Source: a virus
Strand: one strand, 5' to 3'
IMG/VR virus record: IMGVR_UViG_3300035128_000056
Span: 1-64,000 of that record
DNA: 64,000 bases
This document shows positions 2 to 41,106 of the stretch, piece by piece. A model generated the notes under the pieces. It did no database searches. It had not been told where the DNA came from and was given only the letters and a program-made list of their open reading frames with translations. Within the stretch, counting starts at the first letter, position 1. Every line of letters starts with the position of its first letter. The position numbers were made by a program, and so were the translations under genes.

Positions 2-595
2 CACGCCGGTGAAGACTGGCTTGCATGGTACCTCTACTGCTGGACTCGGCAAGATCGTCACCTGCATCAGTGGGAGGCCGACGAGCGTCGGCACGCGCTG
101 CGCAGTCGCGACGAGATATTCCGCGTCGCAGCATCGCGGCTCGCGGCACGCTATCAGACACTCGTGCTCGAGGGTACCAACTCGACCAAGAGCGGGCTTC
201 TCAACCTCGCCGATCTCGCCAGCAAGGCAGCCTCTACCGAAGCGGAGACCAAGGCGGACGACGCCCAGCGTGCGCAGCGAGTGAAAGCCGCGCCGGGCGA
301 GTGCAGGTCAGCTCTTGTCCAGGCATTCCGTGGCTCCGTCGAACCAGAGCCGTTGGAGCGCACCACGACCGAGTGCCACCACTGCCACGGGCTATGCGAG
401 TGGGACGCTGCACGCGAACTGCGCCACACATGCGAGCACTGCGGAGCACGGTGGGATCAGGACGCAAACGCAGCGAAGAATCTGCTCCACCGCAGACGCG
501 AGAGGCTCAATGGTGCATCGAACTCCGGAACCGCTCGCAACGCAAAAAAACCGCGCCAGAATGCTGGCGAAGCAGCATCCGACGCGGCAGAATAG
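2..595 (+). CDS. TnpB/Cas12-family (type V-like) RNA-guided nuclease, C-terminal ~198 aa; 5' end lies outside the window
   Basis: Frame 2 is open from nt 2 (track ORF 164..595 is only its Met-initiated tail). Translation shows ARYQTLVLEG (RuvC-II Glu context), zinc ribbon CHHC...CEHC, then DQDANAAKNLL (RuvC-III D-x-N-A-A), the canonical TnpB/Cas12 C-terminus. A repeat array starts 80 nt downstream on the same strand. Confidence 0.75.
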   Translation, partial: HAGEDWLAWYLYCWTRQDRHLHQWEADERRHALRSRDEIFRVAASRLAARYQTLVLEGTNSTKSGLLNLADLASKAASTEAETKADDAQRAQRVKAAPGECRSALVQAFRGSVEPEPLERTTTECHHCHGLCEWDAARELRHTCEHCGARWDQDANAAKNLLHRRRERLNGASNSGTARNAKKPRQNAGEAASDAAE

Positions 596-674: not shown

Positions 675-1148
675 CTCCAACAAGGCAGCCCGACGCCTTC
701 AAGTCGGGACGCCTGCGCGGCGGCTCGTATTTTCAACGAACGAAGGCTCCAACAAGGCAGCCCGACGCCTTCAAGTCGGGACGATGCGGTCGAATTTGGC
801 GCACCTAGCGCTAGCGCGACTCCAACAAGGCAGCCCGACGCCTTCAAGTCGGGACAATGAATGGATCGAGGTTGTCGCATTTGTGCGAGGTCGCCTCCGA
901 CAAGGCAGCGCGATGCCTTCAAATCGCGACCCATTCTGTCAGCGCATCATCGATCCCGAGGACTGGCTCGCGATGTTCAGCTCCAACACGGCAGCCCGAC
1001 GCCTTCAAGTTGGGACGACCCAGGGGCTTGCTTAAGCGACTCCGACAAGGCAGCGCGATGCCTTCAAATCGCGACGCTGACGCGACCCTTGGCCCGTGCC
1101 CTCCATGGGGCTCTCCGACAAGGCAGCTCGACGCCTTCAAGTTGGGAC
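675..1148 (+). CRISPR. CRISPR-like array, 7 x 36-nt repeats with 6 spacers (36, 37, 39, 50, 23, 37 nt)
   Basis: Repeats at 675-710, 747-782, 820-855 (all CTCCAACAAGGCAGCCCGACGCCTTCAAGTCGGGAC), 895-930 and 1040-1075 (CTCCGACAAGGCAGCGCGATGCCTTCAAATCGCGAC), 981-1016 and 1113-1148 (variants with GTTGGG). Each ends in a 6-bp hairpin plus AC directly before the spacer (type V crRNA geometry). Same strand as the nuclease gene. Confidence 0.8.
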
Positions 1149-10706: not shown

Positions 10707-11867
10707 TCACCATGTCCACTGCGCCGACGACTCGGCTTGCCAGGCGCCGCCGATGCGTCGGAACGTAATGGCGTGTGGTGTACCGGTGGTGTACACCACG
10801 ACTGGGTCAGATCCCCCTGCCGGTTTCGATGCGCCCAGCAGGGTGACCGCGTATGAATTATCGAGGGACATGAACGTGAACCGCAGCCCGTCGGCTACCC
10901 CAGTCGGCAGGGTGAAGTCTCGATCGTTGCTCAACACTCCGCTGGGCAAGACCTGGTAGTCCCCGTCGGCGTAGTCGAGCGTGTGGTTGGAGTCGGTCGA
11001 GATGGAGAAGAGCTTGCGGGCGTTGTTGAAAAGGGCGTTACCCTGGCAATCTACAGCCTTCGATCCATCCGCCATCCCAAGCTTTGCGTTGCCCGTGCTG
11101 GGGTCGATCTTGGCCAGCAGTCTCTCAGTACCAACAGCATCCTTTCCCTGGATACTGTTCCCATTCGAAAGGTTCAGCCCCGCGGTTGTCGGAGCGTTCC
11201 CGCCAATGTCGATGTGTCCGGTACCAAACAGGATGCCTGTGGCAAGCTCCCACGCGCTGCTTGAGTTGTTCCATTGTGCTGCCTGGCCTGTAGCGGATCC
11301 TGCTGGTAGCAGACCAACACTGAACAGTCGCAGGTTGGCTTTGTACGATCCGATCCAGGCATCTACAGAGTAGAACTGAGTCGTCTCTCCGGAAGCAATG
11401 TCGTCGAACCCGCTTCCGCTCAGGATGCGCAGTGCGGTGCTCTCATCCCGCATCGTCGTGCCATCTGCTGGCAGGACGTATGATGCGCCGTTCTTGATTC
11501 CGTTGTTGCCGGTAGCACGCAGCAAGAACTTCCCCCACGGCACACCGGTGAAGTCGAGTTGGGGTGGGGATATCCCAGCGTAGTAGAACCGCTCTGCAGT
11601 CGCATCAGCCGTCCATCCGCTCGGCGTGCTCATCCCCGTCGGATAGTCCCAGATCTCCCACAGACAATACGTGATCCCGGTCGTATCCTCGAGTGTCAGG
11701 TCGACGGTGTCTCCGTCCACGATTGTGATGCCACCGGACTGGTTCGCCCCGCCATTTACGGAAGCGAGGATCTTGACGTATGGGGTGGTTGGCATTGGCT
11801 TGGTATCGCGGACGTTGAGGCTCCGCGCTGCCGTTGATTGGGTTGTGCGCTGCTTCCCGGACCCCAA
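10707..11867 (-). CDS. Tail fibre protein
   Basis: 386 aa, Gly/Thr/Asn-rich, in the fibre position. The track start at 11867 is a TTG; an ATG alternative (MPTTPYVKIL) is at 11795. Confidence 0.55.
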   Translation of the reverse strand: MGSGKQRTTQSTAARSLNVRDTKPMPTTPYVKILASVNGGANQSGGITIVDGDTVDLTLEDTTGITYCLWEIWDYPTGMSTPSGWTADATAERFYYAGISPPQLDFTGVPWGKFLLRATGNNGIKNGASYVLPADGTTMRDESTALRILSGSGFDDIASGETTQFYSVDAWIGSYKANLRLFSVGLLPAGSATGQAAQWNNSSSAWELATGILFGTGHIDIGGNAPTTAGLNLSNGNSIQGKDAVGTERLLAKIDPSTGNAKLGMADGSKAVDCQGNALFNNARKLFSISTDSNHTLDYADGDYQVLPSGVLSNDRDFTLPTGVADGLRFTFMSLDNSYAVTLLGASKPAGGSDPVVVYTTGTPHAITFRRIGGAWQAESSAQWTW

Positions 11868-13309: not shown

Positions 13310-14152
13310 TCATGGCAGGTATGAAAGATGCCTTGTGACCCATGCCGAACCGGACCAGATCAACTCTGCTGAAAAGCAATAGCCGCTTGCTGTGCGCAAC
13401 ACTGGCCCGGCCCAACCAGTGGCAGTGATTGTTAGGTTGTATGAAGTGTCGGCATTCGTTATCGTGATGACGTCACCAGCAGCAACGCCGTTGCCGATCG
13501 TCCATGCCCTGTTTAGAGAGAACACCCCGTTCGGGTTGTGTAGGTGATCTCCACTGGTCAGGCTCAGAGATCTATTTCCATCTGTGGCATTCTCAAAGTA
13601 CCTTTGGCGGACGCGCCCCGTGCCACTGGTACTCACAGGAGCTGTCAGATCGAAGCCAGCGAACGACGGCGTGCCTGTGAAATCTGGGTCTCCAGGGAAA
13701 TCTGGATCTCCGCTGAAAACCGGGTCCCCGCTGAACGTCACTGTACCGGAGAAGGTATGGTTGCCTGACCACGTTGGTCCACCAGCCCACGTACCAGAAA
13801 TGGTTCCGCCACCAGACTGGAGTGTCCCAGCCATCGTGATCTGGGTCTGAAACGTCCACGTGCCGGTGGCTTGTGGGTTTCCAGCGACGACCCCAGTCAA
13901 GCTACCACCGTCGAAGGTCAATTCAGCACCCGACTCAATGCTCAGCGTGCCGGTGACTTCATGGTTGGTGCCGGCCATCGTAATCCCAGCACCGCCAATC
14001 TCGACTGCCGCTGCAGGCGCCCAGGTCCCGCCGTCGTCGCCGTTGATCGACTTGTAGATGCTCTCGTCGATCGACCAGAACTCGCCCTGAGTAACGATGG
14101 TTCCGGCTGCCCAAGCTCCTAGTGACCCACGAATGTACGAAAAATGTGCCAT
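13310..14152 (-). CDS. Tail fibre / fibre-like repeat protein
   Basis: 280 aa. Gly/Thr-rich with short repeats (SGDPVFSGDPDFPGDPDFTGTP). Follows the baseplate I-like gene. Confidence 0.5.
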   Translation of the reverse strand: MAHFSYIRGSLGAWAAGTIVTQGEFWSIDESIYKSINGDDGGTWAPAAAVEIGGAGITMAGTNHEVTGTLSIESGAELTFDGGSLTGVVAGNPQATGTWTFQTQITMAGTLQSGGGTISGTWAGGPTWSGNHTFSGTVTFSGDPVFSGDPDFPGDPDFTGTPSFAGFDLTAPVSTSGTGRVRQRYFENATDGNRSLSLTSGDHLHNPNGVFSLNRAWTIGNGVAAGDVITITNADTSYNLTITATGWAGPVLRTASGYCFSAELIWSGSAWVTRHLSYLP

Positions 14153-34685: not shown

Positions 34686-35864
34686 TCAGGCGAGAACGTG
34701 GAACCAAACAGTGACGTCGAGCTCACCAGCATCCAAATCAGCTAGATCGTGGCTTCCGTCCGGGGTGAACGTGATAGTCAATTGTTCAGACGAAAAGCTG
34801 CCAACCGGGTGTACTCCGGCGGTGCTGAACGCTAGCTTCCCTGTCGCTGCCCCAGTGAAAACGTCGTGCCCGTCACCGATCGCATCAGCGTCAGTTCCGC
34901 CAACGTCGATGGTCACCGCCGTAGCTCCTCCACCACTGAACAGCGTAGTGATATCAACCTCGCTCGCTACCACTACAGCATTTGCTGGCAGAGCGGCTCC
35001 GATATTTAGAGCTTGTGCAACCCCATCAGACGATTCAGTGAGATCAGCCTGAGTAACGTTCAGCGTCCGCTTCTGGAAGATAGCGGCAGTGTTCGTGTTG
35101 ATCAGCGCGCGGTTTTCCGCGAGCGCTGCCTCGACTGTCGTCCCAGTGATTAGCGTCCCGGAGTCTTCGATGCCGACCAGTGAAGCGCCCTCCCCATTGG
35201 AGGTAGACGCAAGCAGCGTCTGCAGCGCCGTCCCAGTCGTAGTCGTCGCGATAGCCGAGAAGGTCAGTGCGGTCGTGTTGAGTACGATCGCGTCGTCCGT
35301 CGTGAGCATGAACAGGGTGTTCCCGTTCGCTGTACCCTCGTTTACAGTGATGAGGACTCCGGCGCGCATCTGGTCGCTCTGGGAGTGCGTAGATGCACGA
35401 ACCATCGACCACTTTGCGTCGGCGGCTCCGATGCCGGTCAGTACGTAGAGACCGTTGTTGGCACCAGTGGACTCGTTCTTCACCAGCACCAGCTCACCAA
35501 CGGCAAGGTCGGTTAGGCCGTCGATGCCGGTGTCATTCAGCGCTGCGTTTGCGTCGGCTGTCAGCGTGTTGCTGGTTCGAGTATTGGCTGGTAGTGCAGC
35601 AGCAGTAGCGACGCGCACACGAATCAGCGCCGACGCCTCTCCGCGCACCAGCCACTTGCCGGACCCGCTCGAAGGGGACAGCCCATCAGAGGCAGTCGAG
35701 TCATCGTCGAACTGGAAGACCTTGCCTCCAGCTACTACCACCATTCCGTCCGCGCGATACGCTGGACCCAATGCCTGCAGCGCCGCCTCGGTGGCAAATG
35801 CTCCGCCAAATCGCTCAGAAACTTCTCGCGCCGCCGCGTCGCCGTACTTGAGTGCACCTGACAT
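34686..35864 (-). CDS. Fibre/tailspike-N-terminus-like protein inserted between terL and portal; its upstream region is matched by CRISPR spacer 1
   Basis: 392 aa. LAVGELVLVKNESTGANNGLYVL and GASLVGIEDSGTLITGTTVEAALAE resemble motifs of phage fibre/tailspike proteins. AAGGA RBS 10 nt upstream of ATG 35864. Confidence 0.5.
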   Translation of the reverse strand: MSGALKYGDAAAREVSERFGGAFATEAALQALGPAYRADGMVVVAGGKVFQFDDDSTASDGLSPSSGSGKWLVRGEASALIRVRVATAAALPANTRTSNTLTADANAALNDTGIDGLTDLAVGELVLVKNESTGANNGLYVLTGIGAADAKWSMVRASTHSQSDQMRAGVLITVNEGTANGNTLFMLTTDDAIVLNTTALTFSAIATTTTGTALQTLLASTSNGEGASLVGIEDSGTLITGTTVEAALAENRALINTNTAAIFQKRTLNVTQADLTESSDGVAQALNIGAALPANAVVVASEVDITTLFSGGGATAVTIDVGGTDADAIGDGHDVFTGAATGKLAFSTAGVHPVGSFSSEQLTITFTPDGSHDLADLDAGELDVTVWFHVLA

Positions 35865-35874
35865 GGTGTCGTTT

Positions 35875-35910
35875 CCTTCGTTCGTTGAAAATACGAGCCG
35901 CCGCGCAGGC
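35875..35910 (-). other. Protospacer: exact 36/36 match to CRISPR spacer 1 (711-746)
   Basis: Plus strand CCTTCGTTCGTTGAAAATACGAGCCGCCGCGCAGGC is the exact reverse complement of spacer 1 GCCTGCGCGGCGGCTCGTATTTTCAACGAACGAAGG. On the minus strand it is flanked 5' by CACCCACCCC and 3' by AAACGACACC-ATG. Confidence 0.95.
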
Positions 35911-36006: not shown

Positions 36007-37602
36007 TCAGAATGGGGCGCGACCGTGACGGCCGGCCATGGATCTGCGAGCACGCATCGCGTCTGGCCCGAAGCGCGAATGCAGGCGCGTGTTGGCGATG
36101 AGGCGCTTGTTCGTCTCGGCGGCTCCGGAGTAGTCGACGGCGCCGCTTTCGCACGCCAGAGCCAACCCCATCGCGTTCGCATGGTCAGGGCTGCGCTTCA
36201 GGCGCTTCTTGATCGAGTCCTGTGACTCGACGCGGATCTTACCGGCTGGCGTGAGAGAGTACGTCGGCGCCACCAGTTCGCGCTCAAGCTCGTGGTTCGG
36301 CTCTAGTGCTGCCCCGTCAACCAGCCACTCCCGCAACATCCACCACATCTCGTCGCGGATTCGATCGAAGCGGTCCGTGTCGTTCGCAGACTGCGCTGAG
36401 TTGATCCCAACCACTGAGAGCCCGACTATGTCGCGCAACTCCTCGATCACACCATCGACGACGCCAGCGCCAAGCCCGCCCTCGTCGATTCCAATCACGA
36501 CCGGCTCGTTGCCTCGTCGCAACTCCTTGGCTGCACTGACGATCTCGCCCGTAACCTCGGTGGTCGGCGCCCCGTGGATCGTCCTGTGGGTCCCGCCGTA
36601 GTCGCCGCGTTTCCACGCGATTACGGTGTCATCGTCTCCGTAGCGCGCGATGTCGGCTCCGATGCAAAGCTTCCCGGATGCGGTTCCTGCCGGATCCAAT
36701 GACGGGTCTTCGCGCCAGAGTTCCAGCGCTGCCTCGAGTGCGAAAAGCGGAACGACCACGTTGGGTCCGGACTTGGGGAAGTCGCCACCAACACGGACGT
36801 CCCAGACGGGTTCCCCGGGCCCGCCGTACTCGCGCGCCATCTCCTCTGCCCAGATGGGCTCAGCGAGACCCGGTACCACAATCTCGCCAGCCAGGATGTT
36901 CGGCGACTCGAGGCTGGAGATATGAAGCAGCGCCCCTTCCTCGAACAGGTTCCGCTTGTCGTGGAACGAGTCGAAGAAGTGGCCGGTAGTAGTAGTCGGG
37001 TTCCCGGTCTCGACGAGCTTTCCGCCGCCGGCCAGGTTGCCCATGATGGCCTCGAAGACGGCGTCCTTCACGCCGCTGGCTTCGTCGACCAGGTAGAGGA
37101 CCTCCGGCGCCGAGATGCCCGAGAAGGAATCCGGGTCGTCAACGGTGAACCCGAGGATCTGCGAGCCGTTCGGAAGCAGGATGCCGGTGGATGGGTCCAG
37201 CGGGACGACTGGCAGCGCGTTGCCGCGCTGTGCCATGGAGCGGAGCTTCCTCACCTCGCGCCAGATCGTCTCCTTTACCTGCCGCGCTGTCGGATGAGTG
37301 GCAACGACTCGAACCCCCGGGCGAGTCAGTGCGAACCACCACGCGAGCAACGCGATCGAAAGAGTCTTGCCGGTCTTGTGACCGGACCTGCACGCTACAC
37401 GGCGAAACTTGGCGACCGCTCGGCAGAGGTCTGCCTGCTTCGTGTAGCCTTCGAACTCAAGACGGAGTCCAAAGAATTCCTTCGCGAAAGCAACTGGGTC
37501 GTTGCGGTATGACTCAATGGAGTCGGCCGTCCTCTTCTGCTTCCTGACCTTCCGCGCCGCCTCCGCCCAACGCGGCGACAATGCGATCGAATGTTTCGTC
37601 AT
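36007..37602 (-). CDS. terL: Terminase large subunit
   Basis: 531 aa. Walker A context RSGHKTGKTLSIALLAWWF. Follows the small-subunit gene, with an 89-nt overlap if ATG 37602 is used. Confidence 0.8.
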   Translation of the reverse strand: MTKHSIALSPRWAEAARKVRKQKRTADSIESYRNDPVAFAKEFFGLRLEFEGYTKQADLCRAVAKFRRVACRSGHKTGKTLSIALLAWWFALTRPGVRVVATHPTARQVKETIWREVRKLRSMAQRGNALPVVPLDPSTGILLPNGSQILGFTVDDPDSFSGISAPEVLYLVDEASGVKDAVFEAIMGNLAGGGKLVETGNPTTTTGHFFDSFHDKRNLFEEGALLHISSLESPNILAGEIVVPGLAEPIWAEEMAREYGGPGEPVWDVRVGGDFPKSGPNVVVPLFALEAALELWREDPSLDPAGTASGKLCIGADIARYGDDDTVIAWKRGDYGGTHRTIHGAPTTEVTGEIVSAAKELRRGNEPVVIGIDEGGLGAGVVDGVIEELRDIVGLSVVGINSAQSANDTDRFDRIRDEMWWMLREWLVDGAALEPNHELERELVAPTYSLTPAGKIRVESQDSIKKRLKRSPDHANAMGLALACESGAVDYSGAAETNKRLIANTRLHSRFGPDAMRARRSMAGRHGRAPF

Positions 37603-40315: not shown

Positions 40316-41106
40316 CGGCCGTCCTCCGATGCGTGGTGGTCATCGCCGTATTCGAGCGTGGGCAGGTCTCCACCAGTAGCCGGCGCGTCGCCCACCACGA
40401 AGTTCCAGATCCTTCGGGCAAGGGTCAGGAGCTCTCTCGATTGTTCGTCAGCAGCCTGGAATTGCAGCTTTCTGTTCGCCGTCGGTTTGCGGGACTGCTC
40501 ATCGATGAGGTTCGCGAACGCCTCACGATGCCGCAGGGCACTGATCTTGCGGCCACGCAGCATCGTCTTGCCGGCTGGGGTCAGGTGCCAGACCGCTACC
40601 CAGGTGTTCCCGTCGGGGGCGTAATAGCACTCCAGAGCCTCGCGACTCGCCTGGTGCACGTTCCCCACGCCTGCCAGGCGGCTCCCTACGATGAGGTCGG
40701 CGGCGTCCGGGCAGTATGACCCGCCCAGTTTCGATCGGACGCTGGAACCGGTCATGCGGGCCGTCAGCGGGCCGTGGGCTCCGGACAGGTAGCGCGCATG
40801 GTACCCGCACCCATCGCACTCCGGGCAGACCCGGTCGAGCATCGGGGGGAGGTCGGGAGCGTTGATTCCGATCCATTCAAGCATCATCCGCTGGGTCTCG
40901 GATGCTGGTCGGCGGTCTGGCTTCGACGCCACGAAACCGCGTCCGCCGCACTCGTAGCACGGCTCGGCATGGTGGGCGTAGAGCGCCGCCCGGTCGAGCT
41001 GCGCCCCAAATGTGCTCGCTTGCCCTCGGGCTCCGCCACCACCACGCATATACCCACGGATATCCGTTGCGTCGTCGGCGCTAATGAATCCCGAGCACTC
41101 ACACAT
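40312..41106 (-). CDS. Hypothetical protein with DnaJ-type CxxCxGxG zinc-finger pair
   Basis: CYECGGRG and CPECDGCG. The track start (41271) is a TTG with poor codon usage for ~55 codons, so the start was moved to ATG 41106 (alternative 41049). Confidence 0.5.
   Translation of the reverse strand: MCECSGFISADDATDIRGYMRGGGGARGQASTFGAQLDRAALYAHHAEPCYECGGRGFVASKPDRRPASETQRMMLEWIGINAPDLPPMLDRVCPECDGCGYHARYLSGAHGPLTARMTGSSVRSKLGGSYCPDAADLIVGSRLAGVGNVHQASREALECYYAPDGNTWVAVWHLTPAGKTMLRGRKISALRHREAFANLIDEQSRKPTANRKLQFQAADEQSRELLTLARRIWNFVVGDAPATGGDLPTLEYGDDHHASEDGR

What the first reader, a model, noticed from the sequence alone, without database searches (positions are those of the whole stretch)
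895..1148. Two repeat classes related by compensatory stem mutations, plus off-lattice spacer lengths
Seen: repeats 1-3 are identical. Repeats 4 and 6 are identical to each other and differ from repeat 1 at five positions (5 A>G, 16 C>G, 20 C>T, 29 G>A, 33 G>C). Positions 16/33 and 20/29 are base-pairing partners in the hairpin, so C:G becomes G:C and C:G becomes T:A with the stem preserved. Repeats 5 and 7 carry GTTGGG (and CTCGAC in repeat 7), which converts pairs to G:U wobbles only. Spacer lengths are 36, 37, 39, 50, 23 and 37 nt. The aberrant 50+23 sums to the same 73 nt as two regular spacers, as if repeat 5 were displaced by about 13 nt. Established knowledge: covariation is the classic signature of selection on RNA secondary structure. 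Inference: the hairpin is functionally required (effector binding or processing). The alternating classes may reflect recombination between two arrays, or guides with different effector affinity.
Basis: seen in the sequence. Interest (0 to 1): 0.6.

Follow-up and report, generated by a model that had tools for sequence, protein, structure and literature searches.

The report
Mosaic Cas12m repeats in phage array
These are the guide-RNA repeats of a phage's own small DNA-binding CRISPR system (Cas12m); they vary in sequence only where the protein grips the RNA by shape, and the odd spacer lengths come from ordinary array turnover, a pattern found here in many Cas12m arrays.

Summary
It is the trailer half of a 7-repeat CRISPR array behind a 709-aa Cas12m-like (type V-M) gene in a circular 90.2-kb tailed phage; a second sample has identical contigs. 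The compensated pairs 16/33 and 20/29 lie in the pseudoknot helix that Cas12m2 binds mainly by backbone; the base-read positions are invariant. 'Repeat 5 displaced by 13 nt' is refuted: a sister strain carries an extra repeat and 39-nt spacer between the 50- and 23-nt spacers, so 50+23=73 is coincidence. Class 2 matches the first repeat of the closest Cas12m relative at all three diagnostic positions, which favours a mosaic of two repeat lineages mixed by recombination or conversion. The pattern is family-wide: 8 of 28 independent Cas12m arrays have within-array compensated pairs, 16 of 28 have short units, and 42 of 43 short units stay at 44 nt or more, about scaffold plus a 17-nt guide. Earlier scan notes report the same in other phages. 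No binding or processing was tested. Verdict: new member of a known kind, modest interest.

The parts
2..595 (+). 3' part of the cas12m-like gene; the gene starts at genome position 88668 and wraps over the 127-nt terminal overlap; 709 aa, RuvC triad D390-E569-D666, C-terminal zinc finger
   Evidence: assembly of the ORF, triad; PDB Cas12m 23vw_A, E 1.6e-15 for the N-terminal 554 aa; closest relative hits only Cas12m structures; PF07282
596..674 (+). Leader; identical in the sister strain; new spacers are added at this end
   Evidence: no sigma-70 consensus promoter found
675..855 (+). Repeats 1-3 (class 1, identical) with spacers 1-2: young, strain-specific leader block
   Evidence: L118 has three other spacers here with the same class-1 repeats
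711..746 (+). Spacer 1, a perfect 36/36 match to the phage's own genome at 35875-35910 (- strand)
   Evidence: same molecule shown by X2 contig lengths
895..930 (+). Repeat 4, class 2 (G5, G16, T20, A29, C33)
931..980 (+). Spacer 4, 50 nt; shared with the sister strain; its last 14-16 nt may be a collapsed class-2 repeat remnant (inconclusive)
   Evidence: p 0.003 for the tail chosen after the fact, p 0.06 for the whole spacer
981..1016 (+). Repeat 5, class-1 lineage with C31T (wobble) and A9C (breaks pair 9:24); junction left by loss of one repeat-spacer unit, or by gain of that unit in the sister strain
1017..1039 (+). Spacer 5, 23 nt; long enough for the 17-nt guide that Cas12m2 uses
1040..1075 (+). 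Repeat 6, class 2, identical to repeat 4
1113..1148 (+). Repeat 7 (trailer): A5G, C16T, C31T; two wobbles, weakest helix (-6.6 kcal/mol against -11.7 for class 1 and -9.0 for class 2)
35875..35910 (-). Protospacer of spacer 1, between terL (36007-37602) and a fibre or decoration-like gene (34686-35864), covering that gene's 5' leader; 5' flank CCC
11805..11841 (-). Solitary Cas12m-type repeat with a class-2-like helix (CGCGGA/TCCGCG), ending 9 nt before an ATG
   Evidence: (21.4 bits, shuffle maximum 13.6)

Best explanation
The array is a working, cas1-less type V-M (Cas12m) CRISPR array of a phage. It is transcribed on the + strand, and each unit gives a crRNA made of about 30 nt of repeat folded as a pseudoknot (stem 8-12 x 21-25, helix 15-20 x 29-34) plus about 17-20 nt of guide. 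Cas12m reads A13, G14, A35 and C36 by base and the helix mostly by backbone, so any helix sequence that still pairs is tolerated, and spacer length beyond about 17-20 nt does not matter. The trailer block (R4-R7) is old: a class-1 lineage that drifted step by step (R7, then GTTGGG repeats, then class 1), with class-2 repeats of a second lineage interleaved by recombination or gene conversion, and units lost by repeat-repeat recombination. The leader block (R1-R3) is young, made by polarised acquisition that copies R1, presumably with host Cas1-Cas2. Shown here: sequence pattern, register with the Cas12m2 scaffold, leader turnover, the unit difference between strains, family-wide recurrence. 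Inferred: transcription, processing, binding of both classes, the recombination origin of class 2, host-supplied adaptation.
For: Exact register with the Cas12m2 crRNA in PMC10442227: A(-24), G(-23):A(-2), C(-22..-17) pairing with G(-8..-3), C(-1), 17-bp guide; all four base-read positions invariant in all repeats; 98% of cells paired, slid controls 22-46%. Effector: best PDB matches are Cas12m. Sister array L118 shares R3 to R7 and spacers 3-6, differs at the leader, and has one more internal unit. Closest relative (P0001, sister in the tree at 100/100) has a class-2-type first repeat. Family: 47 of 69 within-array helix variants keep pairing against 19.4 expected (p 7e-12; p 0.002 against a 50% transition-only null), 8 of 28 array groups have a compensated pair; such arrays are scattered over the tree; blocks of a second repeat class in L053 and L070, alternating classes in L021; 42 of 43 short units are 44 nt or longer (p 1e-4 against uniform 37-65). 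No Cas1 in this or four related phage records. Flip-flop repeat patterns and internal unit loss are known array behaviour (10.1101/2022.05.19.492656; PMC8047081).
Against: No RNA data, so mature guides from class-2 or off-length units are not shown. No target was found for spacers 2-6, so the usefulness of the trailer guides is not shown. R5 (A9C) and R7 (two wobbles) look like mild decay. No donor array made of pure class 2 was found; the L012 repeat is cut at 30 nt by the contig end. Class-1-like helices also occur in other near relatives (L114, L119), so the direction of change cannot be fixed. The 44-nt floor counts units, not independent events, and could partly reflect deletion mechanics.
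Confidence: 0.75

Rival explanations
1. The trailer is a decaying, non-functional tail; class 2 is a fossil of the ancestral repeat, and the compensated pairs record selection in the past only.
For: Variants are confined to the older half; R5 breaks one pair; R7 is the weakest helix; no targets found for trailer spacers; terminal repeat polymorphism is common (PMC8047081).
Against: R4 and R6 are intact and identical, and score highest on the family profile; the block is unchanged in the sister strain; alternation of classes does not follow from simple decay; the family-wide length floor suggests that short units are still selected.
Confidence: 0.13
2. The two classes are kept by selection because they tune guide output (different affinity or processing rate), or because sequence differences between repeats slow array collapse by recombination, protecting a fixed set of valuable guides.
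For: Helix energies differ (-11.7 against -9.0 kcal/mol); the trailer block is conserved between strains while the leader turns over; L005 shows an extreme array in which all 28 repeats differ and the helix covaries at 6 of 6 pairs; PMC8047081 discusses polymorphisms that stabilise arrays.
Against: One effector only; the unit that differs between the strains lies between two nearly identical repeats, as neutral recombination predicts; heterogeneous and homogeneous arrays are close neighbours in the tree (L075/L072, L053/L001); only two strains compared.
Confidence: 0.1
3. The pattern is an assembly chimera of two strains' arrays.
For: Short-read metagenome assembly; at least two strains with different arrays exist.
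Against: Identical unbranched contigs across R3-R4, R4-R6 and R6-R7 in two runs, at the depth of the flanks; an independent assembly of a sister strain has the same trailer order.
Confidence: 0.02

Closest known systems
Type V-M (formerly V-U1) CRISPR-Cas12m: MmCas12m2 (PMC10442227; PDB 8hhl, 8hio), GoCas12m and MsCas12m (PMC11013384; PDB 8pm4)
   Same: TnpB-derived effector with array directly downstream; 36-nt repeat ending in GAC with the same pseudoknot register; no cas1 on the element; D-E-D triad as in some non-cutting orthologs
   Different: 709 aa, longer than the roughly 600-aa characterised proteins; phage-borne; 8-nt loop where most relatives here have 9; two interleaved repeat classes and 23-50-nt spacers in one array, which these papers do not discuss in the passages read
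MvCas12m of myxophage MV-1 (bioRxiv 10.64898/2026.09.14.751636)
   Same: Phage-borne V-M locus, D-E-D triad, no cas1, cas2 or cas4
   Different: One consensus repeat and no spacer targets were reported there; here there are repeat classes, strain-level leader turnover and self or kin matches
Cas12r-CRISPR of Thermus Lalka phages (bioRxiv 10.64898/2026.04.20.719267)
   Same: Phage type V array with degenerate repeats, an off-length spacer, leader-end acquisition without own cas1; guide cut to 18 nt by a ruler-like mechanism
   Different: Different effector clade, nuclease-dependent, 29-nt repeat, A-rich PAM
Flip-flop repeat mutation patterns and internal unit loss in CRISPR arrays (10.1101/2022.05.19.492656; PMC8047081)
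   Same: Alternating repeat variants explained by recombination or mid-array insertion; deletions with clean repeat boundaries
   Different: Those are mostly single-site variants; here five linked sites with two compensated pairs move together

Membership tests
Type V-M Cas12m | Effector homologous to Cas12m, with long helical REC insertion, RuvC and zinc finger | tested here: met
   Best PDB match Cas12m, E 1.6e-15; closest relative matches only Cas12m chains, E 5e-39 to 3e-8; PF07282. No structure was predicted, and the tree held no characterised reference.
Type V-M Cas12m | CRISPR array directly downstream with 36-37-nt repeats folding into the two-stem pseudoknot, with A(-24), G(-23), A(-2), C(-1) | tested here: met
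Type V-M Cas12m | No adaptation module in the locus | tested here: met
   No PF01867 (Cas1) match in the whole record, control rang in 7 of 14 genomes; Cas2 and Cas4 not searched separately
Type V-M Cas12m | RuvC triad of a type seen in Cas12m (D-E-D, H-D-D, N-D-D) | tested here: met
   D390-E569-D666; D-E-D orthologs did not cut dsDNA in PMC11013384
Type V-M Cas12m | Binds dsDNA without cleaving; processes its own pre-crRNA; no tracrRNA | not testable with these tools
   Needs biochemistry; no anti-repeat found in the genome by Hamming and profile scans
Type V-M Cas12m | T- or C-rich 5' PAM | tested here: inconclusive
   Three protospacers in this genome have 5' flanks CCC, TCG and GAT: too few and not consistent
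Regulatory mini-arrays (CreR, crlRNA) | Short, partly complementary guide aimed at the cas promoter, from degenerate repeats | tested here: not met
   Spacers 4-6 have no match in the genome: none within 2 mismatches of 16 nt or 4 of 20 nt at the 5' end, longest exact match 10-13 nt
Two-effector or two-system array | A second effector for the second repeat class on the element | tested here: not met
   Only one Cas12m-like gene in the record; a host-encoded effector cannot be excluded

The most novel reading that the evidence does not exclude
Phage Cas12m arrays form a continuum from ordinary CRISPR arrays to compact guide cassettes defined by RNA structure and not by sequence (30-nt pseudoknot plus about 17-nt guide, every repeat different, as in L005), driven by selection to keep guides while escaping recombinational collapse; this array, with a fixed mosaic trailer and an active leader, would be an early stage, and the solitary repeat at 11805-11841 would be part of a Cas12m-dependent control of phage genes.
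Probability: 0.2. Interest if true: 0.6.

Novelty: new member of a known kind. Interest (0 to 1): 0.33.

Why it matters
It is a natural structure-function experiment on the Cas12m guide scaffold: it shows which positions can change and that units shrink only to about scaffold plus 17 nt, which is useful for designing non-repetitive, compact multiplex arrays for Cas12m tools. It also warns that sequence-identity array finders will split or miss many Cas12m arrays. As a single locus it does not reveal a new mechanism.

Tried and rejected
Exact class-1 and class-2 repeats in viral contigs, and a degenerate pattern in metagenome contigs: no match. Rfam: nothing significant. Spacer targets: spacers 3, 4, 5, 6 in viral contigs (exact 18-20-mers), none; GenBank phages, only chance-level hits; spacer 2 was checked only against the own genome and GenBank phages. 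No RNA holder listed, so expression was not examined. One locus search failed for lack of a conserved stretch. 'Repeat 5 displaced' rejected. Spacer-spacer duplication within this array: best p about 0.013 among 110 comparisons, not significant. Repeat remnant in the 50-nt spacer: inconclusive, an unrelated spacer scores nearly as high (17 against 18). Tyrosine integrase: none; serine recombinases not searched, so lifestyle is open. Self-matches in five other Cas12m phage arrays: one 33/37 match in G001, no perfect one. MFE folding cannot model the pseudoknot, so pairing probabilities were not used as evidence. NCBIfam has no Cas12m model hit; TnpB hits are far below cut-off.

Full report
Observation. 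The window begins inside a TnpB-derived gene (2-595) followed by seven 36-nt repeats at 675, 747, 820, 895, 981, 1040 and 1113, with spacers of 36, 37, 39, 50, 23 and 37 nt. R1-3 are identical. R4 and R6 are identical and differ from R1 at A5G, C16G, C20T, G29A and G33C; 16/33 and 20/29 are pairing partners. Five random substitutions give two compensated pairs in 0.09% of simulations. The wobbles pair only on the + strand, which fits + strand transcription.

Is it an artefact? The record is a circular 90,202-bp genome with a 127-nt terminal overlap. Contigs of two runs, one of them from a different sample and study code, span R3-R4 (826-924), R4-R6 (901-1069) and R6 onward with no differences and at the depth of the flanks. 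An independently assembled sister strain has the same trailer order. A chimera is unlikely.

What the locus is. The gene starts at genome position 88668 and encodes 709 aa with a D390-E569-D666 RuvC triad. Its best PDB match is Cas12m (E 1.6e-15), and its closest relative matches only Cas12m structures. The element is a tailed phage: terminase, portal, major head and sheath genes are identified. It has no Cas1, no tyrosine integrase and no second Cas12m-like gene. The runs that hold it are wetland metagenomes. The host is not known.

Why the stem covaries. In the Cas12m2 structure (PMC10442227) A(-24) is flipped out, G(-23) pairs with A(-2), C(-22) to C(-17) pair with G(-8) to G(-3) as the pseudoknot helix, C(-1) is read base-specifically, the helix is bound through backbone contacts, the first 7 nt are disordered, and only 17 nt of guide pair with the target. 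Our repeat has A13, G14, helix 15-20 x 29-34, A35 and C36 in that exact register, plus a second stem 8-12 x 21-25 that crosses it. All base-read positions are invariant; 98% of cells pair, against 22-46% in slid controls. The only unpaired cell is A9C in R5. So the covariation marks a known protein-bound RNA element whose sequence is free as long as it pairs. That this protein binds both classes is inference.

Why the spacer lengths are odd. Locus L118 is a sister strain with the same leader and trailer. Its array has nine repeats: three different leader spacers, then our spacer 3, class 2, the 50-nt spacer, a GTTGGG repeat with A9 intact, an extra 39-nt spacer, our R5, the 23-nt spacer, class 2, spacer 6 and R7. 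Run X3 shows the same extra spacer as a loose end at 1016. The 50- and 23-nt spacers are therefore not two halves of a shifted lattice; one unit was lost between two nearly identical repeats in this strain (or gained in the other; loss is the commoner event according to PMC8047081). Both lengths leave a full 17-nt guide. The tail of the 50-nt spacer may be a collapsed class-2 repeat, but the test is inconclusive.

Where class 2 comes from. Read from trailer to leader, the class-1 lineage changes in steps: R7 (G5, T31), then A5 with T31, then A5 with C31. Class 2 interrupts this series twice with five linked differences, one of them a C:G to G:C flip that has no wobble intermediate, so it is unlikely to have arisen twice here. 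The closest Cas12m relative (P0001, 100/100 support) begins its array with a repeat that agrees with class 2 at positions 16, 20 and 29 (23/25 identity, against 20/25 for class 1). Either class 2 is the older repeat of this lineage and was spread by conversion, or it came in from a related phage. Other near relatives have class-1-like helices, so the direction is open. Alternating variants explained by recombination are a described pattern (10.1101/2022.05.19.492656).

How common is it? From about 100 related loci I extracted 36 distinct arrays in 28 independent groups. Eight groups, this one included, have at least one compensated helix pair within an array; 47 of 69 variant pairs keep pairing, against 19.4 expected for random changes and 50% for a transition-only null (p 0.002). 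L070 shows the same C:G to T:A change in its last two repeats, L053 has a block of a second class in the middle, and L021 alternates two classes. Sixteen of 28 arrays have a unit of 65 nt or less and 7 have one of 81-130 nt (some of these may hide a decayed repeat); 42 of 43 short units are at least 44 nt long (p 1e-4 against a uniform 37-65 null), about scaffold plus guide. The extreme case is L005: 28 units of about 47 nt, all repeats different, all six helix pairs covarying (0/500 shuffles). Heterogeneous arrays are scattered over the effector tree. The sample came from one peptide motif and is not a census.

What the array does. Spacer 1 matches the phage's own genome perfectly, just upstream of a fibre-like gene behind terL; in run X2 the two long contigs end exactly at the array and at this protospacer (35,882 and 35,904), so both are on one molecule. 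Two leader spacers of L118 also match this genome, one perfectly and one with two synonymous mismatches. The likely role is silencing of co-infecting kin, with self-acquisition tolerated; the flanks CCC, TCG and GAT do not give a PAM. This part was reported separately by the scan (e1-3422694). The trailer spacers have no known target.

Comparison and verdict. The locus meets every testable feature of type V-M. Phage-borne Cas12m has been reported (10.64898/2026.09.14.751636), as have degenerate repeats with an off-length spacer in a phage type V array (10.64898/2026.04.20.719267). Five literature searches found no paper describing within-array covariation for Cas12m, but the library is incomplete, and earlier scan notes describe it in other phages. 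The finding is real and well explained by a known scaffold and ordinary array dynamics. Novelty: new member of a known kind. Interest 0.33; the family-wide trend towards compact structure-defined arrays is the more interesting lead, and L005 shows it better than this window.

Noticed in passing
window 35875-35910 (-): Perfect self-protospacer of spacer 1 over the 5' leader of the gene behind terL; two leader spacers of the sister strain also match this genome at 40956-40994 (39/39) and 13462-13496 (33/35, both changes synonymous). All three are in the sense of the - strand genes.
   Followed up: partly
window 11805-11841 (-): Solitary Cas12m-type repeat with a class-2-like helix, ending 9 nt before the ATG at 11795; the only copy outside the array that beats the shuffles.
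   Followed up: partly
L005:4561-5889 (IMGVR_UViG_3300024243_000005): Cas12m array of 28 units with about 47-nt period: 30-nt scaffold plus mostly 15-21-nt guides, every repeat different, all six helix pairs covarying. No self-targets found.
   Followed up: partly
L021:3930-4289: Seven repeats alternating between two helix classes, with 7-25-nt spacers of which several are near-duplicates: looks built by block duplication.
   Followed up: no
L121 (G006:C1:52878-52915): Solitary copy of the L009 Cas12m repeat about 44 kb from its array.
   Followed up: no
L006:4612-4631 and just after its last repeat: A 20-26-nt inverted repeat flanks the whole array.
   Followed up: no
window 530-544 and 620-634: The motif ACCGCTCGCAA occurs twice near the end of the cas gene and in the leader, and recurs in leaders of relatives (L013, L119 in part); possible promoter or adaptation signal.
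   Followed up: no
L117:6880-7500: A close Cas12m relative in a 120-kb contig has no array behind it, only what may be a repeat remnant, and is followed by an integrase gene.
   Followed up: no
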